Below are positions 57,910 to 64,000 of a stretch of 64,000 nucleotides of DNA, one piece after another. The stretch is taken from the sequence record SRR31156797_5453. The stretch is one strand, 5' to 3'. Under the pieces are notes generated by a model. That model was not told the origin of the DNA. It did no database searches and saw only the letters and a list, made by a program, of their open reading frames with translations. Position numbers and translations under genes: made by a program. The stretch's first letter is position 1. The number at the start of each line of letters is the position of its first letter.

Positions 57910-58017
57910 ATTGTTTCCCTCTTTTCTTATAAGGATAGTTTGACTGAGGGATTGATCCTTCCAATGTCAAATATTCCTATCTATTATACCGAAGAATCCA
58001 AAGAAAAGCCATGGCAG

Positions 58018-58416
58018 CTAGCTTTCCTTTTTCTTGTTAGGTTGGTGATCGGTGGTTTGCAGTGCACGCTCAATTTCTTTGTTCAAGAAATAAGAGATGA
58101 CTGTTCGAATAATAACGACTGCAGCTAGACGTACGATGTCTTCGAAAGTAGGGTGGATGATCGTCTCAATAATATCTGCTGCAATCAAGATCTCAAGACC
58201 TAATAAGACATAACTCCCTAAATAATTGCGGATAAAATTATTCTCTCTGGCTGCCACCAAACGGTCCTTTTCTGTTAATTCGTAGCGCACGAAATCAATG
58301 CCTGCGATCAATACACCCCAAACGATGACGAAAATGGAGAGAAAGTTTAAACAGACAACAATGAAATCGAAGATTGGGTTGGCTCCAGTCATCAAAGAAC
58401 TAGCTAGATTATGCAT
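58018..58416 (-). CDS. DUF1622 membrane protein
   Basis: LGSYVLLGLEILIAADIIETI and IRTVISYFL motifs; AGGAG RBS. Confidence 0.85.
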   Translation of the reverse strand: MHNLASSLMTGANPIFDFIVVCLNFLSIFVIVWGVLIAGIDFVRYELTEKDRLVAARENNFIRNYLGSYVLLGLEILIAADIIETIIHPTFEDIVRLAAVVIIRTVISYFLNKEIERALQTTDHQPNKKKES

Positions 58417-58542
58417 AATGACTCCTTTACCGTTTTCTTTTATCTTACCGAATTATCGAAGAAATGTGAAGTTTCTTGACGTTCTAGAAGGGAATTGATA
58501 GTATGAATTAATAGTAGGATTTTTAAAAAAGGTGGGCAAATT

Positions 58543-59118
58543 ATGGAACAAGTTAGGAACTTTGTTCATTACACGAAAGAAAAAACAGTGGAAAGCTGGC
58601 AGGCTTTGTTAGATGATCTATACCGAGATCAGAAAAAAACGATTTTCACGCTGATCGGAGGCATTCTTTTCGCGCTGGTTTTTGCAGGCTTGATCGTTTT
58701 TTCTCAAAATCGCATCAACGCCTCTTTAGTGGATCGAATCGCTTTCGACAAGTTACCTTCGGAAAAAGTACAGCCATTACCATATTTGACAGCTGATAAG
58801 ACGATTCGAGAAACAAGAGCGATTTCTGTGATGTACAGTAAACCAAATGGCCCACAGCTGGATCAAGTGTTTGATCTGATCCAAGCACAGGAAGACGAAA
58901 TGAATCGAACATTTTTTTATTATCCGATCGTCTATGACGTGGCATTTTTCTCCAATGAATATGACATTGATCCTGATAAAGTGACCTTTGTCTTCTATGA
59001 AGAAGGAGTCGAGAAAAATCGCTTTACTTTTGATTCATTTGAGCAGCCAACGACGGAATTCATCCCAGAATTGAATCGTTTACCCATGTGGACGATTCGT
59101 TCTTCTGCCAATGATTGA
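58543..59118 (+). CDS. Membrane-anchored thioredoxin-like protein with no CxxC
   Basis: One TM; ISVMYSKPNG...FFYYPI...YDI..VTFVFYEEGVEKNR follows a thioredoxin-fold pattern; no Cys in the protein. Confidence 0.6.
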   Translation: MEQVRNFVHYTKEKTVESWQALLDDLYRDQKKTIFTLIGGILFALVFAGLIVFSQNRINASLVDRIAFDKLPSEKVQPLPYLTADKTIRETRAISVMYSKPNGPQLDQVFDLIQAQEDEMNRTFFYYPIVYDVAFFSNEYDIDPDKVTFVFYEEGVEKNRFTFDSFEQPTTEFIPELNRLPMWTIRSSAND

Positions 59119-59149
59119 TAAAAAAATCTGACAATTTGACAGAAAATTG

Positions 59150-59178
59150 TTGACGTTTTTTTATCAATAGGCTAAACT
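59150..59178 (+). promoter_or_regulatory. sigmaA promoter for the Trp leader and ABC transporter
   Basis: TTGACG-17 nt-TAAACT. Confidence 0.75.
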
Positions 59179-59222
59179 GAATTCAATCAAGAAAGAAAAC
59201 AAGTTGAGAAGGAGGAACAATC

Positions 59223-59276
59223 ATGAAACTATTTATTCCATTGCAAGTGAAATCATGGCAAAACTGGCGTAGATAG
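59223..59276 (+). CDS. Putative Trp-sensing leader peptide MKLFIPLQVKSWQNWRR (17 aa)
   Basis: AAGGAGG RBS upstream; two TGG codons at 59256 and 59265; stop overlaps an attenuator helix; lies upstream of a TrpX-type transporter. Confidence 0.85.
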   Translation: MKLFIPLQVKSWQNWRR

Positions 59277-59434
59277 TTGTATTGATGGGACCTCATTCCA
59301 TAGATACAACTTTTTAGAGAACCTTCTAAAGTGCTGTATCTATGCTGGTAGTTGAATTTATCGCCGCATAGGACAACCTTCTATGCGGCTTTTGCTTACT
59401 TGCAATTGCCGTCACATAGGCAGTTGCTTTTTTT
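59275..59434 (+). promoter_or_regulatory. Attenuator with alternative helices and two terminators
   Basis: Helix 59275-59290/59296-59311; competing 59299-59308/59335-59344; antiterminator 59339-59349/59363-59372; terminators at 59363-59393 and 59402-59434. Confidence 0.8.
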
Positions 59435-59495
59435 GTTCTCAAAAACCGTAAAAACGAAAACATGAAAAACTTAAGCAGAAAAAGGAGAATGAAAA

Positions 59496-60548
59496 ATGAA
59501 AAACAAGGGATTAATTGCATCGGTTGCCGTTATTTTATTATTTTTAGGAGCGACCTTTGTCTATCAGTTAGGAATGAGAAGTGGGACCAATCAAGCCAGT
59601 GAGACTTCGGAACCAGTAGAAAAAGCTGAAAAAACAGTTGGGATCCTGCAGTTTGTCAGTCATGAAGCGTTAGATGCGATCACCGAGGGGATCAAAGAAG
59701 GCCTTAAAGAATCAGGCTATACCGAAGGGGACAACTTGACGATCGAATTCCAAAACGGCCAAGCGGATCAAAGTAAATTGGCAACGATGAGTCAGCAGCT
59801 GCTAAATAAAGATGCCGACGTTTTGGTTGGGGTAGCAACACCCGCAGCACAAGCGTTGGCGAATGTCACTCAGGATGTACCAATCGTTTTAGGAGCGGTC
59901 ACTGATCCAGTTGGGGCAAATCTCGTGGCAGATATGGATCAACCCGGCGGAAATATCACTGGTGTTTCAGATAAAGCACCCGTCGCTGCGCAAATCAAAC
60001 TAGCAAAAGATTTGCTACCGGAGGCAAAAACAGTCGGCATTTTGTATTCTTCGACCGAAGACAATTCGAAATACCAAGTGGCAGAAGCAGAAGCTGCTGC
60101 CGAAGAAAATGGCTTGACCAGCAAATCGTATGCCGTTCCTTCAAGTAACGAAATTGCTCAAATGGTGCAAGTGATGGCACGAGAAGTCGACTTTATCTAT
60201 ATTCCGTTAGATAATACGATTGCAAACGCAATGCAGACGGTAGTACAAGAAGCCAATAAATCAAAAACGCCCATCATCACGTCTGTTGATACGATGGTGG
60301 AACAAGGCGGCTTAGCAACGGTTGGGCAAGATCAATTTACGATTGGGGTCGAAACCGGGAAGATGGTGGCAGCAATTCTTGACGGGACGGCCGAACCTGC
60401 GACAACGCCGATCTATACATTCAGCGATGGCGAAACGATCATTAATGAAACACAAGCGCAGTTATTGGGAATCACTATCCCAGAAAACCTCAAAGACGAG
60501 GCAAAATTGATTACAACGACACCGGAAAGTGAAGCAAGTGATGAGTAA
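59496..60548 (+). CDS. trpX: ABC transporter substrate-binding protein, TrpX-like (aromatic amino acid)
   Basis: VGILQFVSHEALD, NGQADQS, ATPAAQA, AVTDPV, GGNITGVSD, SSTEDNS, DNTIA; the Trp leader supports Trp specificity. Confidence 0.85.
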   Translation: MKNKGLIASVAVILLFLGATFVYQLGMRSGTNQASETSEPVEKAEKTVGILQFVSHEALDAITEGIKEGLKESGYTEGDNLTIEFQNGQADQSKLATMSQQLLNKDADVLVGVATPAAQALANVTQDVPIVLGAVTDPVGANLVADMDQPGGNITGVSDKAPVAAQIKLAKDLLPEAKTVGILYSSTEDNSKYQVAEAEAAAEENGLTSKSYAVPSSNEIAQMVQVMAREVDFIYIPLDNTIANAMQTVVQEANKSKTPIITSVDTMVEQGGLATVGQDQFTIGVETGKMVAAILDGTAEPATTPIYTFSDGETIINETQAQLLGITIPENLKDEAKLITTTPESEASDE

Positions 60549-60623
60549 CAATTAGGAACAGCAATCACCTGCGATCACCGAGAGAGTCTTGAAAGAGAAA
60601 ACTTGTAAGAATATGGAGGAAGA

Positions 60624-61511
60624 ATGATGATTGTTTCAGCAATAGGGCAAGGGCTACTTTGGGGAATCCTGGGATTAGGGATTTTTATGACCTATCGTAT
60701 TTTGAATTTCCCGGATATGACGACGGAAGGGTCCTTTCCGTTAGGCGGTGCTGTCTGTGTGACAGCGATCACCCATGGGGTGTCGCCCGTCTTAGCGACT
60801 TTGTTAGGAGTATTGGCTGGGATGTGTGCGGGCTGTGTGACAGGACTTCTTTATACAAAAGGCAAAATTCCCGTGATTTTAGCAGGTATTTTGGTGATGT
60901 CTTCATTGAACTCGGTCATGCTGTTTGTGATGCGCTCACCAAACCTCTCTTTATTAAACCAACCGAAAATTCAAGATTTTTTTACTAGAATGAATTTACC
61001 GAATTATTATGATACGGTGATTATCGGATTGATCATGGTCTTGTTGATTGGGGGCGTCTTGGTTTACTTTTTCCATACCAACTTGGGTCAAGCTTATATT
61101 GCTACCGGGGATAATGAACACATGGCCAAGTCAATGGGAATCAATACGGATCGAATGAAAATCATTGGACTGATCGTCTCCAATGGCGTGATCGCACTCT
61201 CAGGCGCATTGATCGCTCAAAACGACGGCTACGCCGACATAAGCAAGGGAATCGGTGTGATCGTTATCGGACTGGCGTCAATCATCATTGGTGAGGTATT
61301 ATATGGTGAATTGACCTTGCTGGAACGTCTGATCGCTATCGTGATCGGCAGCATTATCTACCAATTATTGATACTATTTGTGATCAAAGCTGGATTTGAT
61401 ACGACTTACTTGAAGATCTTCTCTGCAATCGTCTTGACGATCTGCCTGTTGATCCCTCAATTTAAACAAGCCTTGCATCTACGCACTGGTTTTGAAACGG
61501 AGGATGAATAA
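60624..61511 (+). CDS. ABC transporter permease (TrpY-like)
   Basis: RILNFPDMTTEGSFPLG, ATGDN, GVIVIGLASIIIGE. Confidence 0.9.
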   Translation: MMIVSAIGQGLLWGILGLGIFMTYRILNFPDMTTEGSFPLGGAVCVTAITHGVSPVLATLLGVLAGMCAGCVTGLLYTKGKIPVILAGILVMSSLNSVMLFVMRSPNLSLLNQPKIQDFFTRMNLPNYYDTVIIGLIMVLLIGGVLVYFFHTNLGQAYIATGDNEHMAKSMGINTDRMKIIGLIVSNGVIALSGALIAQNDGYADISKGIGVIVIGLASIIIGEVLYGELTLLERLIAIVIGSIIYQLLILFVIKAGFDTTYLKIFSAIVLTICLLIPQFKQALHLRTGFETEDE

Positions 61512-62269
61512 TGTTAGCCTTAAAAAAAGCCTTTAAAGTTGTCGGCAACGGACCGAATGAGAAAAAAGTGCTCTTGAATAAAATCGATCTTTCTTTAAAA
61601 CCAGGAGAATTTGTCACGGTCGTCGGAGGAAATGGCGCCGGCAAAAGTACGCTATTCAACTGCATCTCAGGCACCATGCCCTTGACGAGTGGGCAAGTGA
61701 TGATCGATGATCAAAACGTGACCGCACTTTCGGAAGAAAAACGTGCCCGCTTTTTGGCACGTGTCTTCCAAGACCCGAAAATGGGCACTGCTCCCCGTAT
61801 GACAGTGGCAGAAAATCTGCTGTTAGCACAAAAAAGAGGGCAAAAACGGTCACTTGGTCTTCGACAACTCCAAGGACAAAGGGAAATGTTCTTTGCGCTT
61901 TGTAAAGAAATCGGCAATGGGTTGGAAAATCATTTGGATACGCCAACGGGCAGTTTATCTGGTGGTCAACGACAGGCACTAAGTTTATTGATGGCAACGA
62001 TTCAAACACCAAAACTGTTGTTGCTAGATGAACATACGGCTGCGTTAGACCCAAAGACCTCCAAACAGCTGATGCAAATCACTGCAAGACGCGTGGAAGA
62101 ACAAAACCTAACTTGTCTCATGATCACCCATCGGATGGAAGATGCATTAAAATACGGAGACCGCCTGATCCTGCTCAGAAAAGGGGAAATCGTCAAGGAT
62201 CTTTCAGCAGATGAAAAAGCTCGCTTAAGTTTACCAGAACTGTTACTGTTCTTTGAAGACGACTTATAA
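61511..62269 (+). CDS. ABC transporter ATP-binding protein (TrpZ-like)
   Basis: GGNGAGKST, RVFQDP, LSGGQRQ, LLLDEHTAALDP, ITH. Confidence 0.93.
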   Translation: MLALKKAFKVVGNGPNEKKVLLNKIDLSLKPGEFVTVVGGNGAGKSTLFNCISGTMPLTSGQVMIDDQNVTALSEEKRARFLARVFQDPKMGTAPRMTVAENLLLAQKRGQKRSLGLRQLQGQREMFFALCKEIGNGLENHLDTPTGSLSGGQRQALSLLMATIQTPKLLLLDEHTAALDPKTSKQLMQITARRVEEQNLTCLMITHRMEDALKYGDRLILLRKGEIVKDLSADEKARLSLPELLLFFEDDL

Positions 62270-62334
62270 GCCCTTGATAGAACAGTGTTTTCAAAAAAAA
62301 TAATCAAATAAATGAAAAAAATAAGAAAAAATCA

Positions 62335-62363
62335 TTGACATCTTTCAAAGTTAAACCTATACT
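62335..62363 (+). promoter_or_regulatory. sigmaA promoter of the aro operon
   Basis: TTGACA-17 nt-TATACT. Confidence 0.9.
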
Positions 62364-62398
62364 TAGGTCAATCTTACATCAGTTTGGAGCGAAGGACT

Positions 62399-62464
62399 AT
62401 GCAAAAATTATTGCTAACGAACCCCACACAACTGAATAAATATTACTTTAGCTATTTTAGATAG
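62399..62464 (+). CDS. Putative Tyr/Phe-sensing leader peptide MQKLLLTNPTQLNKYYFSYFR (21 aa)
   Basis: Starts about 30 nt after the inferred transcription start; GGAG and AAGGA upstream; TAT TAC TTT AGC TAT TTT cluster just before AGA TAG; precedes aroE-aroF. Confidence 0.85.
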   Translation: MQKLLLTNPTQLNKYYFSYFR

Positions 62465-62663
62465 GTTTGTATTCATGAAGGCATGGGTACAAACGCTAAG
62501 TTTGTATCTATGATGGCTAGAGCATTTCGTAATGAATTCGCAGCCACGTAGATCGTAAAATCTATAGTGGCTATTTTTTATATTCACATATCGGCGCTGT
62601 CGCTATGTAATGTTTGAAGGTGTTCACTGTAGATTCTTAAATTTACGGTGGACATCTTTTTTT
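62465..62663 (+). promoter_or_regulatory. Attenuator with alternative helices and two terminators
   Basis: Helix 62465-62477/62482-62494; competing 62482-62494/62500-62512; antiterminator 62506-62518/62542-62553; terminators at 62542-62579 and 62617-62663. Confidence 0.85.
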
Positions 62664-62682
62664 GTTGAAAGGAATGAACCAG

Positions 62683-63552
62683 ATGAAACAAATGATAACC
62701 GGTCACACACGGTTGGCGGCACTATTTGCCAAACCAGCCAAACACAGCATCTCTCCAGCGATGCACAATCTTTCTTTTGAAGAACAAGGGATCGACGCCG
62801 TGTATCTGGCCTTTGATGTTGAGCCGGATGATTTAGCCGCTAGTATCCAAAGCATCCGTCAGTTGGATCTCTTAGGTGTCAATCTATCAATGCCCCATAA
62901 AATGGCAGCAGTACCGTTGATGGATGAATGCTCACCAGCAGCCGAGCTGATCGGCGCAATCAATACAATCGTCAATCAAGAGGGGCGATTGATTGGGCAC
63001 AATACAGATGGTATCGGCTTTATGCGCGCACTTGAAGACATTCAAGTGTCGATCATTGGAAAAACGATGACTGTGATCGGTGCAGGTGGAGCAGCGACAG
63101 CAATCATTAGTCAAGCTGCACTAGATGGTGTCAAAACAATCCGTGTCTTTAACCGCAAGGATGAGTTTTATCCAATCATCCAGGAAAAATTGACACAGAT
63201 CGCAGAAAAGACCGCCTCTGAAATCACATTAACGGATTTAGAAGATCAGACGGCTCTAAAAACAGCCATCGATCAAAGCAGTCTTTTAGTTAATGCTACT
63301 GGCGTGGGGATGAAGTCGAATGATACGGTAAGTCCTCTAAAAGACAAAACACTCTTGCGGGAATCATTAGCTGTCTATGATGTCATCTATAATCCAAGAG
63401 AAACGCAGCTTTTGAAAGATGCGAAAGAAGTCGGTGCCAAAACTGCAAACGGCTTAAGCATGTTGCTGTATCAAGGTGCAGCTGCATTTAAACTTTGGAC
63501 AGGCCAAGAAATGCCTGTTGAAAAAGTAAAAGCACTTATTGAGTCCATGTAA
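62683..63552 (+). CDS. aroE: Shikimate dehydrogenase
   Basis: HSISPAMHN, NLSMPHK, GAINTI, NTDGIGF, GAGGAA, NATGVGM, MLLYQG; AAAGGA RBS before ATG 62683. Confidence 0.95.
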   Translation: MKQMITGHTRLAALFAKPAKHSISPAMHNLSFEEQGIDAVYLAFDVEPDDLAASIQSIRQLDLLGVNLSMPHKMAAVPLMDECSPAAELIGAINTIVNQEGRLIGHNTDGIGFMRALEDIQVSIIGKTMTVIGAGGAATAIISQAALDGVKTIRVFNRKDEFYPIIQEKLTQIAEKTASEITLTDLEDQTALKTAIDQSSLLVNATGVGMKSNDTVSPLKDKTLLRESLAVYDVIYNPRETQLLKDAKEVGAKTANGLSMLLYQGAAAFKLWTGQEMPVEKVKALIESM

Positions 63553-63592
63553 AAAATAAAAAAATTAGAAAAAACGAAAGTAGGAAGAAAAA

Positions 63593-64000
63593 ATGATCGT
63601 AATTATGAAACCAGGCGCTACGCCAGAACAAGTTGAAGTTGTTGTAACTAGAATCAAAAAAGAAGGCTTAGATGTTCAAGTCAACCAAGGAAAAGAACAG
63701 GTCGTTATCGGGTTAAAAGGGGATACACGCCGCATCCAAGATGTTGCTTTTCGCAGCTACGAAGGTGTCGAAGATGCCATTCGGATCTCAAATACTTACA
63801 AATTGACCTCTCGTGAGTTCCATCCGCAAGATACGGTTGTGGATGTAGATGGTGTGAAAATCGGTGACGGCAACTTTGTTACGATGGCTGGTCCATGTTC
63901 GATTGAAGGCTTAGACCAAATTCGTGAATGTGCCCGAATCGCCAAAGCTGGTGGTGCACAAATCTTACGTGGTGGTGCCTTCAAACCCCGCACGTCGCCT
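63593..64000 (+). CDS. aroF: DAHP synthase (3-deoxy-7-phosphoheptulonate synthase, type I-beta with N-terminal regulatory domain), runs off the window end; absent from the ORF track
   Basis: Translates as MIVIMKPGATPEQV...YKLTSREFHP...AGPCSIE...LRGGAFKPRTSP. Confidence 0.95.
   Translation, partial: MIVIMKPGATPEQVEVVVTRIKKEGLDVQVNQGKEQVVIGLKGDTRRIQDVAFRSYEGVEDAIRISNTYKLTSREFHPQDTVVDVDGVKIGDGNFVTMAGPCSIEGLDQIRECARIAKAGGAQILRGGAFKPRTSP

What the first reader, a model, noticed from the sequence alone, without database searches (positions are those of the whole stretch)
62335..62663. Unannotated Tyr/Phe leader peptide (MQKLLLTNPTQLNKYYFSYFR) controlling the shikimate operon
Seen: near-consensus promoter TTGACA-17-TATACT and a 21-codon ORF whose five aromatic codons (Y,Y,F,Y,F) all lie in the last seven. 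Segments 1 (GTTTGTATTCATG, 62465) and 3 (GTTTGTATCTATG, 62500) are near-identical direct repeats competing for segment 2 (CATGGGTACAAAC), each giving 13 bp including GU pairs. ATCTATGATGGCT (62506-62518) pairs with AGCCACGTAGAT (62542-62553), the 5' arm of the terminator. Inference: a dual Tyr+Phe sensor on the common aromatic pathway. It has no Trp codon, which fits Trp being imported and sensed separately by the adjacent transporter operon.
Basis: partly seen in the sequence, partly recalled or inferred. Interest (0 to 1): 0.85.

Follow-up and report, generated by a model that had tools for sequence, protein, structure and literature searches.

The report
Tyr/Phe leader-peptide attenuator before aroE
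A tiny upstream gene rich in tyrosine and phenylalanine codons, followed by switchable RNA hairpins and two terminators, most likely turns the aromatic amino-acid operon on when these amino acids run short; it is real and widely conserved, but of a classical and probably already catalogued kind.

Summary
The RNA matches Rfam RF02863 (Enterococcus sRNA_2410; 85.8 bits, cut-off 61). It occurs in 130 of 134 Enterococcaceae genomes and 85 of 151 sampled genomes of the order.

All 120 copies I read carry an SD+ATG uORF of 17-27 codons with 4-5 aromatic codons among the last seven. They sit before aroE, DAHP synthase or chorismate synthase genes, or PF04392 ABC-transporter binding proteins. Phe-only, Tyr-only and (trpB motif) Trp-only versions exist on the same scaffold. 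In constrained folding the antiterminator competes only when a ribosome sits on the aromatic codons.

Most likely this is a classical ribosome-mediated attenuator sensing Tyr/Phe-tRNA (confidence 0.85). No expression data were usable.

It is probably not new. A putative attenuator before the E. faecalis aro operon was listed in 2005. Stav et al. 2019 list Firmicutes "aromatic amino acid attenuator" uORFs whose description fits this family. The nearest genome does have trpEGDCFBA, behind tandem T-boxes.

The parts
62335..62363 (+). Promoter: -35 TTGACA, 17-nt spacer, -10 TATACT
   Evidence: 11 of 12 consensus matches. A -35/-10 pair at the same relative place is found in 109 of 120 homologous leaders.
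62386..62389 (+). Shine-Dalgarno GGAG, 9 nt before the uORF ATG
   Evidence: An SD-like purine motif lies 3-16 nt before the ATG in 120 of 120 leaders (script criterion).
62399..62464 (+). Leader uORF, 21 codons plus TAG: MQKLLLTNPTQLNKYYFSYFR
   Evidence: A uORF is present in all 120 sequences read. Length is 17-22 codons, with one of 27. The stop is TAG in 110, TAA in 9 and TGA in 1, at the same place.
62441..62458 (+). Regulatory codon cluster TAT TAC TTT AGC TAT TTT (Y Y F S Y F)
   Evidence: There are 5 aromatic codons among the last 7 sense codons in 90 of 120 leaders and 4 in the other 30.
62446..62461 (+). Segment 0: the uORF end, which pairs with 62507-62522 and so sequesters the antiterminator strand when no ribosome is present
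   Evidence: MFE structure. 97.9% of cells are paired over 110 distinct leaders.
62465..62477 (+). Segment 1, 5' arm of hairpin 1:2
   Evidence: Helix 1:2 is paired in 97.0% of cells, and 7 of 13 pairs show changes on both sides.
62482..62494 (+). Segment 2, which pairs with segment 1 or with segment 3
62500..62522 (+). Segment 3. 62500-62512 pairs with segment 2, 62506-62518 with segment 4 (the antiterminator), and 62507-62522 with segment 0.
   Evidence: Helix 2:3 is paired in 94.8% of cells and 3:4 in 93.3%. Controls slid by 1-3 columns, scored over the whole tested structure (this helix plus a second one), give 29-49%.
62542..62579 (+). Terminator T1: segment 4 (62542-62553), a 6-nt loop, segment 5 (62560-62572), then A and T6
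   Evidence: -14.1 kcal/mol. A T-rich tail follows this hairpin in 26 of 38 aroE-type leaders, 3 of 3 aroC-type, 2 of 2 DAHP-synthase-type, and 3 of 6 whose downstream gene the script left unclassed. It follows 0 of 61 transporter-type leaders.
62616..62666 (+). Terminator T2: 20-bp hairpin 62616-62659 (segments 6 and 7) followed by a T run. Segment 6 can pair with segment 5 instead.
   Evidence: hairpin -24.1 kcal/mol; 5:6 duplex -15.0. The 5:6 complementarity scores z <= -2 against shuffles in 79 of the 83 leaders where my script found T2, out of 110 distinct leaders.
62683..63552 (+). aroE (shikimate dehydrogenase), first gene of the controlled operon. The start is probably ATG 62683; ATG 62674 is also possible.
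   Evidence: The identical gene in the nearest genome matches Shikimate_dh_N and SDH_C.
63593..64000 (+). DAHP synthase gene, second gene of the operon, cut by the window end
   Evidence: The nearest genome shows aroE, DAHP synthase, aroB, aroC, tyrA, aroA, aroK and pheA on one strand.

Best explanation
This is a classical ribosome-mediated (leader-peptide) transcription attenuator that reads the supply of charged tRNA-Tyr and tRNA-Phe.

Transcription starts a few bases after 62363 and the 21-codon uORF is translated while RNA polymerase moves on. Three states follow.

(a) Tyr or Phe scarce. The ribosome stalls on the Y-Y-F-S-Y-F codons (62441-62458). It covers segment 0 but leaves segment 1 free. 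Hairpin 1:2 forms, so segment 3 has no upstream partner and pairs with segment 4 as soon as that is made. Segment 5 is then free to pair with segment 6. Neither T1 (4:5) nor T2 (6:7) forms in time, and aroE-aroF-aroB-aroC-tyrA-aroA-aroK-pheA is transcribed.

(b) Tyr and Phe plentiful. The ribosome reaches the stop codon, which abuts segment 1, and masks it. Helix 2:3 forms, then 4:5 and 6:7, and transcription ends.

(c) No translation. Helices 0:3 and 1:2 form, then 4:5 and 6:7, and transcription ends.

Shown here: the sequence parts, their conservation, the conserved alternative pairings, and the gene associations. Inferred: translation of the uORF, stalling, the kinetic order of folding, and the response to Tyr and Phe.
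For: (1) Family membership and spread. The leader matches Rfam RF02863 at 85.8 bits against a cut-off of 61. The family was found in 8 of 8 genomes of the genus (two copies each). It was found in 130 of 134 genomes of the family (121 over the cut-off), and in 85 of 151 sampled genomes of the order.

(2) uORF conservation. I read 119 of about 248 family matches, plus the window. All 120 have an SD+ATG uORF. The N-terminus varies in sequence and length (17-22 codons, one of 27). The C-terminus is typically QLN-x-[YF]-Y-F-S-Y-F-R, and the stop codon is fixed but takes three forms (TAG 110, TAA 9, TGA 1). All 24 loci read from six other families of the order also have the uORF.

(3) Targets fit the amino acids. 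The downstream genes are aroE (42), DAHP synthase (5), chorismate synthase (3) and PF04392 ABC binding proteins (69), assigned by N-terminal motifs. I checked representatives by Pfam. The operon in the nearest genome includes tyrA and pheA.

(4) Codon identity changes while the RNA scaffold stays.
- Phe-only leaders (FFFSFFR, 6 loci) and Tyr-only leaders (RYYVSYY, 3 loci) each precede their own transporter clade.
- Independent Tyr-only (L171) and Phe-only (L183) leaders occur in other families.
- Trp-only leaders end SWQNWRR in 31 of 31 trpB-motif loci read, one of them before trpB.

(5) The alternative helices are conserved: 0:3 at 97.9%, 1:2 at 97.0%, 2:3 at 94.8% and 3:4 at 93.3% of cells paired. 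The same structures slid by 1-3 columns give 29-49%. Variation in shared segments is limited to changes that keep both partners, such as A/G opposite U.

(6) Constrained folding of the window's leader. G(antiterminator) minus G(terminator) is +3.5 kcal/mol with no ribosome. It is -0.9 to +1.5 with a ribosome on any of the five aromatic codons. It is +7.8 to +8.0 with a ribosome at the stop codon. Over 110 distinct leaders, the stop state disfavours the antiterminator by at least 4 kcal/mol more than the stalled state in 94, and by at least 2 kcal/mol more in 106.

(7) Published observation. The E. faecium copy is a short abundant RNA seen as two transcripts on Northern blots (PMC5593968, passages read). 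That is what a terminated leader would look like.

(8) Control for T-box detection. No T-box was found in 58000-64000 at E <= 10. The same tool finds two T-boxes before the trp operon of the nearest genome.
Against: - No expression, 3'-end or ribosome data could be obtained. The RNA runs were held as contigs only.
- At equilibrium T2 forms whatever happens upstream: P = 0.95-0.96, with 6:7 at -25.2 against 5:6 at -15.0 kcal/mol. In the median leader the 4:5 hairpin stays favoured by 3.5 kcal/mol even in the stalled state. The switch therefore has to be kinetic, and this was not modelled.
- A ribosome stalled on the last two aromatic codons would already touch segment 1.
- Segments 1-3 are almost invariant across a whole order. 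That is more than alternative pairing strictly needs and leaves room for an extra factor.
- The conserved Q-L-N before the aromatic run is unexplained.
- Within Enterococcaceae the Phe-only and Tyr-only switches are one event each.
- In the one experimentally studied mixed leader, C. glutamicum aroR, transcription responded to Phe but not to Tyr (review PMC11802643, passages read). Dual sensing is therefore not assured.
Confidence: 0.85

Rival explanations
1. The RNA is a riboswitch. It binds a small ligand (an aromatic amino acid or a related metabolite) or a tRNA directly, and the uORF is incidental. This is the reading offered for the related trpB motif.
For: Narunsky et al. 2024 (PMC11109978, passages read) class the trpB motif as a strong riboswitch candidate, with a hairpin whose right shoulder can act as antiterminator. 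The aro leader hits that model weakly, at 26.4 bits and E 1.9. Segments 1-3 are very highly conserved in sequence.
Against: An SD+ATG uORF is present in 120 of 120 leaders, with three different stop codons at one position and a variable in-frame N-terminus. The codons at the uORF end name the amino acid that fits the downstream genes (Trp, Tyr+Phe, Phe or Tyr), while the proposed 'aptamer' stays the same. No T-box-like element was found. The authors themselves could not rule out a classic attenuator.
Confidence: 0.04
2. The main product is a trans-acting small RNA (sRNA_2410), and its position before aroE is secondary.
For: Rfam files it as an sRNA. It was detected by RNA-seq and Northern blot in E. 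faecium (PMC5593968). Liberated attenuator RNAs can act in trans in Sinorhizobium (PMC6614838; title and start of the abstract seen in the listing).
Against: In all 120 leaders read it lies, in the sense orientation, in the promoter-proximal leader ahead of the next downstream ORF. That ORF is an aro gene or a PF04392 transporter gene in 119 of 120. The structure ends in terminators that alternative pairings can undo. No target was proposed in the passages I read. A trans role could exist alongside the cis role.
Confidence: 0.04
3. An RNA-binding protein (TRAP-like or PyrR-like), activated by aromatic amino acids, binds the repeated GTTTGTAT-type segments and sets the terminator choice. Translation of the uORF plays no sensing role.
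For: Segments 1 and 3 are near-identical direct repeats. They are almost invariant over 110 distinct leaders and recur in Clostridia and Turicibacter.
Against: No candidate protein gene is linked to the element in the loci read. The repeats are explained by their need to pair with the same segment 2. This reading does not explain the uORF, its fixed stop, or the codon classes.
Confidence: 0.04
4. The nascent peptide is an arrest peptide that senses free Tyr or Phe inside the ribosome (TnaC-like), rather than sensing tRNA charging.
For: Non-regulatory residues are conserved (Q-L-N, and R before the stop) in many leaders, including Trp-type and clostridial ones.
Against: Arrest at or near the stop codon would mask segment 1 and favour 2:3 plus the terminators. 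Release also gives termination. Such a mechanism therefore offers no route to read-through. S18 and R21 lie in the stretch (62446-62461) that pairs with 62507-62522, so RNA pairing can account for their conservation. Phe-only, Tyr-only, Trp-only and possibly His-only versions are more simply read as codon sensors.
Confidence: 0.03

Closest known systems
[quoted passage not shown] 2019, BMC Microbiol 19:66, PMC6429828). I read the main-text passages, the Fig. 6 legend and one row each of the held supplementary table.
   Same: These are short uORFs with Phe and Tyr codons ahead of shikimate-pathway genes. uORF-12 is listed for Firmicutes (Bacilli, Clostridia, Erysipelotrichia) with 1258 representatives. 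[quoted passage not shown] My pattern scan finds the present scaffold in records of all three classes, for example Enterococcus, Clostridium/Peptostreptococcaceae and Turicibacter. Among the 27 of 80 listed loci that I read, 25 have at least 4 aromatic or His codons in the last ten of the uORF.
   Different: Identity with uORF-12 or uORF-13 is inferred from the descriptions only. Their alignments and figure were not available to me. The record from which they were found did not appear among the 80 rows shown. Neither motif is in Rfam under that name. No experiment was reported in what I read.
Rfam RF02863, Enterococcus sRNA_2410 (Sinel et al. 2017, PMC5593968; passages read)
   Same: It is the same RNA family by covariance model, at 85.8 bits against a cut-off of 61. 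It was detected as a roughly 195-nt RNA with two bands in E. faecium.
   Different: It is filed as an sRNA with no function given. The model starts inside the uORF's last codons, so the uORF, SD and promoter lie outside it.
trpB motif, Rfam RF04312 (Narunsky et al. 2024, PMC11109978; passages read)
   Same: It has the same architecture: hairpin 2:3, an antiterminator in its right shoulder, then a terminator. It also has the same transporter family as its main target. The neighbouring leader at 59297-59400 scores 50.8 bits and the aro leader 26.4 bits. Weaker trpB-model hits fall inside RF02863 hits (compare).
   Different: The aro leader is below that family's cut-off of 59. In the trpB-type leaders the uORF ends with two Trp codons instead of Tyr/Phe codons. 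The authors treat it as a riboswitch candidate.
Corynebacterium glutamicum aroR leader peptide before the aroF operon (Neshat et al. 2014, as summarised in review PMC11802643; passages read)
   Same: It is a leader peptide with mixed Phe and Tyr codons controlling the entry enzyme of the common aromatic pathway by ribosome stalling.
   Different: It belongs to a different phylum and I tested no sequence relation. aroR is reported to respond to Phe limitation but not to Tyr. The relay of seven or eight segments with two terminators is not described there.
E. coli pheL-pheA and trpL-trp attenuators (textbook; summarised in PMC11802643)
   Same: The logic is the same: regulatory codons near the end of a short uORF, a 1:2 / 2:3 / 3:4 competition, and an intrinsic terminator.
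   Different: No Rfam leader family of Proteobacteria is among the 5 matches that one search lists at E <= 10. Here an extra upstream strand (the uORF end itself) and an extra downstream relay (5:6, 6:7) are added.
Putative attenuator before the Enterococcus faecalis aro supraoperon, listed from Merino's attenuator website by Song et al. 2005 (PMC1173090; passages and Table 7 text read)
   Same: The place (ahead of the eight-gene aro/tyrA/pheA operon of an Enterococcus) and the idea (a terminator/antiterminator choice) are the same.
   Different: It is a structure prediction only. The term 'leader peptide' does not occur in that paper (0 occurrences).

Membership tests
Classical ribosome-mediated (leader-peptide) transcription attenuator | Short uORF with a ribosome-binding site in the leader transcript | tested here: met
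   GGAG at 62386-62389 and ATG at 62399, 21 codons. An SD+ATG uORF is present in 120 of 120 homologous leaders.
Classical ribosome-mediated (leader-peptide) transcription attenuator | Cluster of codons for the end-product amino acid(s) near the uORF end | tested here: met
   Five of the last seven sense codons are Tyr or Phe. The count is 5 in 90 leaders and 4 in 30. The operon in the nearest genome ends in tyrA and pheA.
Classical ribosome-mediated (leader-peptide) transcription attenuator | Mutually exclusive terminator and antiterminator pairings whose choice depends on where the ribosome sits | tested here: met
   Helices 0:3, 1:2, 2:3 and 3:4 are kept in 93-98% of cells. Constrained folding gives a shift of about 7-9 kcal/mol between the stalled and stop positions. 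The shift is at least 4 kcal/mol in 94 of 110 leaders. This evidence is computational only.
Classical ribosome-mediated (leader-peptide) transcription attenuator | Intrinsic terminator between the uORF and the first structural gene | tested here: met
   T1 is 62542-62572 plus T6. T2 is 62616-62659 plus a T run.
Classical ribosome-mediated (leader-peptide) transcription attenuator | Read-through rises on starvation for the amino acid, and the uORF is translated | not testable with these tools
   RNA runs were held only as contigs. No ribosome profiling was available.
Rfam RF02863 (sRNA_2410) | Covariance-model score at or above the gathering score | tested here: met
   85.8 bits against 61, E 1.2e-13, with the full model length matched.
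Rfam RF04312 (trpB motif) | Covariance-model score at or above the gathering score | tested here: not met
   The aro leader scores 26.4 bits against 59, E 1.9. The neighbouring leader at 59297-59400 scores 50.8 bits against 59, E 3.4e-5. They are related in architecture, but neither is a member by Rfam's threshold.
T-box leader (RF00230) | Covariance-model match (specifier loop, T-box sequence) | tested here: not met
   There is no T-box among the matches at E <= 10 in 58000-64000. As a positive control, two T-boxes at 108 and 104.7 bits lie before the trp operon of the nearest genome.
[quoted passage not shown] 2019) | Phe/Tyr-codon uORF before shikimate or amino-acid transporter genes in Firmicutes (Bacilli, Clostridia, Erysipelotrichia) | tested here: met
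   The descriptors match.
[quoted passage not shown] 2019) | Sequence and structure match to the authors' alignment | not testable with these tools
   Only one supplementary table is held as text.

The most novel reading that the evidence does not exclude
One old attenuator scaffold, spread over Bacilli, Clostridia and Erysipelotrichia, is re-aimed at different amino acids simply by swapping the few codons at the end of its uORF, with matching changes in the strand that pairs with them. The versions are Trp (SWQNWRR), Tyr+Phe (YYFSYFR), Phe (FFFSFFR), Tyr (YYVSYY, and poly-Tyr in C. difficile) and perhaps His (HHHH before a HisZ-like gene). On this reading Rfam's 'sRNA_2410' is not an sRNA, and the orphan 'trpB strong riboswitch candidate' (more than 900 representatives) is not a riboswitch. 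Both are leader-peptide attenuators of a single family whose read-out is relayed through a domino chain of up to eight alternately complementary segments.
Probability: 0.55. Interest if true: 0.6.

Novelty: already known. Interest (0 to 1): 0.4.

Why it matters
For the window itself this is ordinary regulation. The aromatic pathway operon of an Enterococcus is switched by a textbook mechanism, where many Firmicutes use T-boxes instead.

The wider value lies in tidying the catalogue. The same element appears in public resources under three unconnected labels: an Enterococcus sRNA, a riboswitch candidate, and a uORF attenuator candidate. The comparative data here argue that the first two are leader-peptide attenuators.

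That would remove a large orphan 'riboswitch' class from the list of ligand hunts. It would also give clean, testable specificity predictions for a family of PF04392 ABC transporters, as Trp, Tyr, Phe or Tyr+Phe importers, in enterococci and relatives.

Tried and rejected
- Own genome. The window's assembly is not held, so the trp-gene and operon checks rest on the nearest genome G001 (73% of sampled words shared) and its relatives.
- Expression. All 22 runs offered were held as contigs. Laying 4 of them showed contigs that bridge the leader and aroE in 3 runs (X1, X2, X3), one of them an 80-kb contig. There were no starts, ends or depths that could be read as transcripts, so I drew no conclusion.
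- Equilibrium test of the 5:6 relay. T2 forms with P = 0.95-0.96 in every state. Thermodynamics gives no support for read-through of T2, and only the conservation of 5:6 complementarity speaks for it. My T2 finder missed 27 of 110 leaders, mostly because the downstream ORF call ran upstream of the true start. Those 27 were not inspected.
- Promoter scan as evidence on its own: 4 sites found against 3.8 expected.
- T-box, and the Proteobacterial leader families of Rfam: no match at E <= 10.
- Earlier notes of this scan by place and by sequence: nothing.
- Proving identity with uORF-12 or uORF-13. Only a table row is held and figures are not held.
- Literature. I ran ten full-text searches. None returned a paper that names a Tyr/Phe leader peptide in enterococci. 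The four peptide motifs searched occur in 0 papers. The search covers open-access papers and bioRxiv only. Panina et al. 2003 and Merino and Yanofsky 2005, which I recall as relevant, were not seen.
Full report
**What is in the window.** The stretch 62335-62663 is the leader of aroE (about 62683-63552), which is followed by a DAHP synthase gene (63593 to the window end). Upstream lies a three-gene ABC transporter operon (59496-62269): a PF04392 binding protein, a permease and an ATPase.

- Promoter: TTGACA, 17 nt, TATACT at 62335-62363.
- SD and uORF: GGAG at 62386-62389, then a uORF from ATG 62399 to TAG 62462-62464 encoding MQKLLLTNPTQLNKYYFSYFR.
- Repeats: the near-identical segments 62465-62477 and 62500-62512 can each form 13 pairs with 62482-62494.
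- Antiterminator: 62506-62518 forms 12 pairs with 62542-62553, the 5' arm of a hairpin (62542-62572, -14.1 kcal/mol) followed by T6.

Two further features belong to the element.
- The last codons of the uORF (62446-62461) pair with 62507-62522.
- A second terminator, a 20-bp hairpin at 62616-62659 followed by a T run, stands just before the aroE ribosome-binding site.

The whole leader folds far better than shuffles: z = -5.28, with 0 of 100 shuffles as low.

**Known RNA families.** cmscan gives Rfam RF02863, 'Enterococcus sRNA_2410', at 85.8 bits (cut-off 61) over 62448-62638. There is no T-box. The trpB motif (RF04312) hits weakly at 26.4 bits, below its cut-off of 59, over 62480-62582. The same motif scores 50.8 bits at 59297-59400, ahead of the neighbouring transporter.

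sRNA_2410 was defined from RNA-seq in E. faecium and seen as two transcripts on Northern blots. No function is given in the passages I read (PMC5593968). The trpB motif is described as a 'strong riboswitch candidate'. Its authors could not rule out a classic attenuator (PMC11109978).

**Conservation.** The window's own assembly is not held, so relatives are drawn around the nearest genome, G001.
- Genus: RF02863 is found in 8 of 8 genomes, twice in each.
- Family: 130 of 134 genomes, 121 of them over the cut-off, with 1 to 6 copies each.
- Order: 85 of 151 evenly sampled genomes. By family the counts are 20/20, 18/19, 14/19, 13/18, 12/19, 6/18, 2/18, 0/18 and 0/2.

I read 119 of the roughly 248 family matches. 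These were all 16, the 30 loci returned, and 73 more. I chose those 73 from the listed rows to cover other genera and multi-copy genomes.

Together with the window, 120 of 120 sequences carry an ATG uORF preceded by an SD-like motif.
- Length: 17-22 codons, and 27 in one locus where a one-base insertion moves the stop.
- Stop codon: TAG in 110, TAA in 9 and TGA in 1, at the same place.
- Aromatic codons among the last seven sense codons: 5 in 90 leaders and 4 in 30.

The N-terminal part varies in sequence and length but always stays in frame. The end is typically QLN-x-[Y/F]-Y-F-S-Y-F-R.

All 24 loci read from six other families of the order also have the uORF. Nineteen have a clear SD, and the five from one family have only a purine-rich stretch.

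**Targets.** I assigned downstream genes by N-terminal motifs in my script and checked representatives by Pfam. They are:
- aroE: 42, including the window;
- DAHP synthase: 5;
- chorismate synthase: 3;
- PF04392 ABC binding proteins: 69;
- one locus with an IS200-like transposase ORF inserted after the leader.

In the nearest genome the aroE operon runs through eight genes. They are aroE, DAHP synthase, dehydroquinate synthase, chorismate synthase, prephenate dehydrogenase, EPSP synthase, shikimate kinase and prephenate dehydratase. The operon therefore makes both Tyr and Phe, which fits a mixed Tyr/Phe sensor.

A PF04392 transporter of this kind is a proven Trp importer in Streptococcus suis (PMC9382623, passages read).

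**Codon classes.** This is the strongest argument that the codons themselves are read.
- In one genus, six leaders end FFFSFFR (Phe only) and three end RYYVSYY (Tyr only). Each group precedes its own long-branched clade of binding proteins.
- The 27 binding proteins that follow Trp-type leaders form a separate clade, with support 100.
- On the tree of 94 proteins, the four leader classes need only three changes in all. These are therefore few independent events.
- Independent Tyr-only (HNYYGYYR, L171) and Phe-only (EFAFSFFFR, L183) leaders occur in two other families.
- In the Tyr-only leaders both Phe codons are removed with little loss of the RNA pairing. One becomes GTT. The other becomes TAT through a one-base insertion that also moves the stop one codon upstream (by eye).

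**The neighbouring leader.** At 59223-59276 there is an SD+ATG uORF, MKLFIPLQVKSWQNWRR, with two Trp codons. It is followed by the same chain of alternative pairings: 0:3 at -17.2, 1:2 at -11.2, 2:3 at -12.8, 3:4 at -14.2 and 4:5 at -19.4 kcal/mol. Two terminator-like hairpins follow.

The trpB model hits 133 of 134 genomes of the family, 52 of them over its cut-off. In the window plus the 30 best loci, 31 of 31 have a uORF with two Trp codons close to its end. It ends WQNWRR in 26 of them. One of these uORFs lies before trpB.

The suggestion that the genome may lack trp genes is not supported. TrpA and TrpC matches are present in 5 of 5 genomes tested, including the nearest one. In the nearest genome they lie in a seven-ORF cluster behind two tandem T-boxes.

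**RNA logic.** On an alignment of 110 distinct leaders, the mutually exclusive helices are each preserved.
- 0:3 is paired in 97.9% of cells.
- 1:2 is paired in 97.0%, and 7 of 13 pairs show changes on both sides.
- 2:3 is paired in 94.8%.
- 3:4 is paired in 93.3%.
- The same structures slid by 1-3 columns give 29-49%.

The 4:5 helix scores 76% on this alignment, whose loop region is poorly aligned.

For the window I folded the leader with forced pairs and with the ribosome-covered bases kept single-stranded. The free-energy difference, antiterminator minus terminator, is:
- +3.5 kcal/mol without a ribosome;
- -0.9 to +1.5 with the A site on any of the five aromatic codons;
- +7.8 to +8.0 with the A site on the stop codon.

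Over all 110 leaders, the stop state is worse for the antiterminator than the stalled state by at least 4 kcal/mol in 94, and by at least 2 kcal/mol in 106. The median stalled value is still +3.5, so the choice must be kinetic.

Downstream, segment 5 is complementary to the 5' arm of T2. In the window this duplex is -15.0 kcal/mol. It scores z <= -2 against shuffles in 79 of the 83 leaders in which my script located T2. The paired bases differ between clades.

At equilibrium, however, T2 forms regardless of the upstream state (P = 0.95-0.96).

In transporter-type leaders the 4:5 hairpin has no T tract (0 of 61), so T2 is the only terminator there. In aro-type leaders 4:5 usually has one: 26 of 38 aroE, 3 of 3 aroC and 2 of 2 DAHP synthase.

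**Most likely mechanism.** The element is a classical leader-peptide attenuator, extended at both ends.
- A ribosome stalled on the Tyr/Phe codons hides segment 0 and lets 1:2 form. Segment 3 then captures segment 4, segment 5 captures segment 6, and both terminators are avoided.
- A ribosome at the stop codon hides segment 1, so 2:3, 4:5 and 6:7 form.
- Without translation, 0:3 and 1:2 form, and then 4:5 and 6:7.

Translation, stalling and the response to amino acids are all inferred. No usable expression data were available.

**Rivals.** A riboswitch, a trans-acting sRNA, a protein-mediated switch and an arrest peptide each fail to explain one thing. That is the fixed-frame uORF with interchangeable stop codons, together with codon classes that match the target genes. 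I give each 3-4%.

**What is known.** Three earlier notes of this scan pointed me to relevant sources.
- Stav et al. 2019 give a supplementary table listing uORF-12 and uORF-13 as 'aromatic amino acid attenuator'. uORF-12 is listed for Firmicutes (Bacilli, Clostridia, Erysipelotrichia) with 1258 representatives. [quoted passage not shown] The Fig. 6 legend mentions two uORFs with Phe and Tyr before shikimate genes.
- A pattern scan of species-representative genomes finds the present scaffold in records of all three classes. Examples are Enterococcus, Carnobacterium and Vagococcus (Bacilli). Clostridia are represented by Clostridium, Clostridioides, Terrisporobacter and Romboutsia, and Erysipelotrichia by Turicibacter. 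Among the 27 of 80 listed loci that I read, 25 have at least 4 aromatic or His codons in the last ten of the uORF.
- I therefore think it likely, though not proven, that this family is the one already listed in 2019.
- A 'putative attenuator' before the E. faecalis aro operon was also tabulated in 2005, without a leader peptide (PMC1173090).
- A mixed Phe/Tyr leader peptide, aroR, is experimentally known in C. glutamicum.

**Verdict.** The element is a member of a known and probably already catalogued kind.

It links three separate catalogue entries. It gives evidence that the trpB 'riboswitch candidate' carries a Trp-codon uORF. And it documents the codon-swapped classes and the relay to a second terminator.

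Noticed in passing
window 59150-59435: This is the leader of the neighbouring PF04392 ABC transporter operon. It has a promoter-like TTGACG, 17 nt, TAAACT at 59150-59178 and a uORF at 59223-59276 (MKLFIPLQVKSWQNWRR) with two Trp codons. A trpB-motif-like RNA follows at 59297-59400 (50.8 bits, cut-off 59), then a second terminator-like hairpin at 59402-59427 plus T7. It shows the same chain of alternative pairings as the aro leader. 31 of 31 trpB-motif loci read have a uORF with two Trp codons close to its end.
   Followed up: yes
L049, L060, L064, L068, L073, L075 (Phe-only); L069, L074, L077 (Tyr-only); L171, L183 in other families: These leaders sit on the same RNA scaffold, but their uORF ends with only Phe codons (FFFSFFR) or only Tyr codons (RYYVSYY, HNYYGYYR). 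Each group precedes its own clade of PF04392 binding proteins, which suggests Phe- and Tyr-specific importers.
   Followed up: partly
L188, L191, L195 (another family of the class; weak trpB-model hits of 42-54 bits): Read by eye, these uORFs carry four consecutive His codons, for example ...QYYHHHHRCKGL in L191. They are followed by a similar hairpin and a 323-aa gene of the tRNA-synt_His family (HisZ-like; Pfam checked for L191 only). This may be the His attenuator that PMC9413887 reports for Erysipelotrichales. Homology to the aromatic scaffold is not shown.
   Followed up: partly
L203, L227 (records titled Clostridioides difficile): The same segment 3 / segment 4 pattern is preceded by a uORF with a run of five or six Tyr codons (MNTLLNNKKYYYYYYSHYF). 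The downstream gene was not fetched.
   Followed up: no
L121 (nearest genome G001, contig C56): A cluster of seven ORFs of 215-498 aa on one strand holds the TrpA and TrpC matches and is preceded by two tandem T-box leaders (108 and 104.7 bits). In this organism Trp synthesis thus uses T-boxes, while Trp import and Tyr/Phe synthesis use leader peptides.
   Followed up: partly
L116 (G124): An ORF resembling an IS200-type transposase (name recalled from its N-terminal sequence, not tested) lies between an intact YF leader and the place where aroE stands in sister genomes.
   Followed up: no
L024 (G041): A one-base insertion in AGATAG removes the usual stop. The uORF then runs five codons further into segment 1, giving 27 codons.
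   Followed up: no
window 62429-62437 and homologous leaders: The codons Q-L-N, two positions before the aromatic run, are conserved in Tyr/Phe-type, many Trp-type and clostridial leaders ([Q/K]-[L/V/F]-N). Neither the attenuation model nor the pairings I tested explain this.
   Followed up: no
window 58543-59118: A 191-aa ORF upstream of the transporter leader has no Pfam match at E <= 0.001.
   Followed up: no
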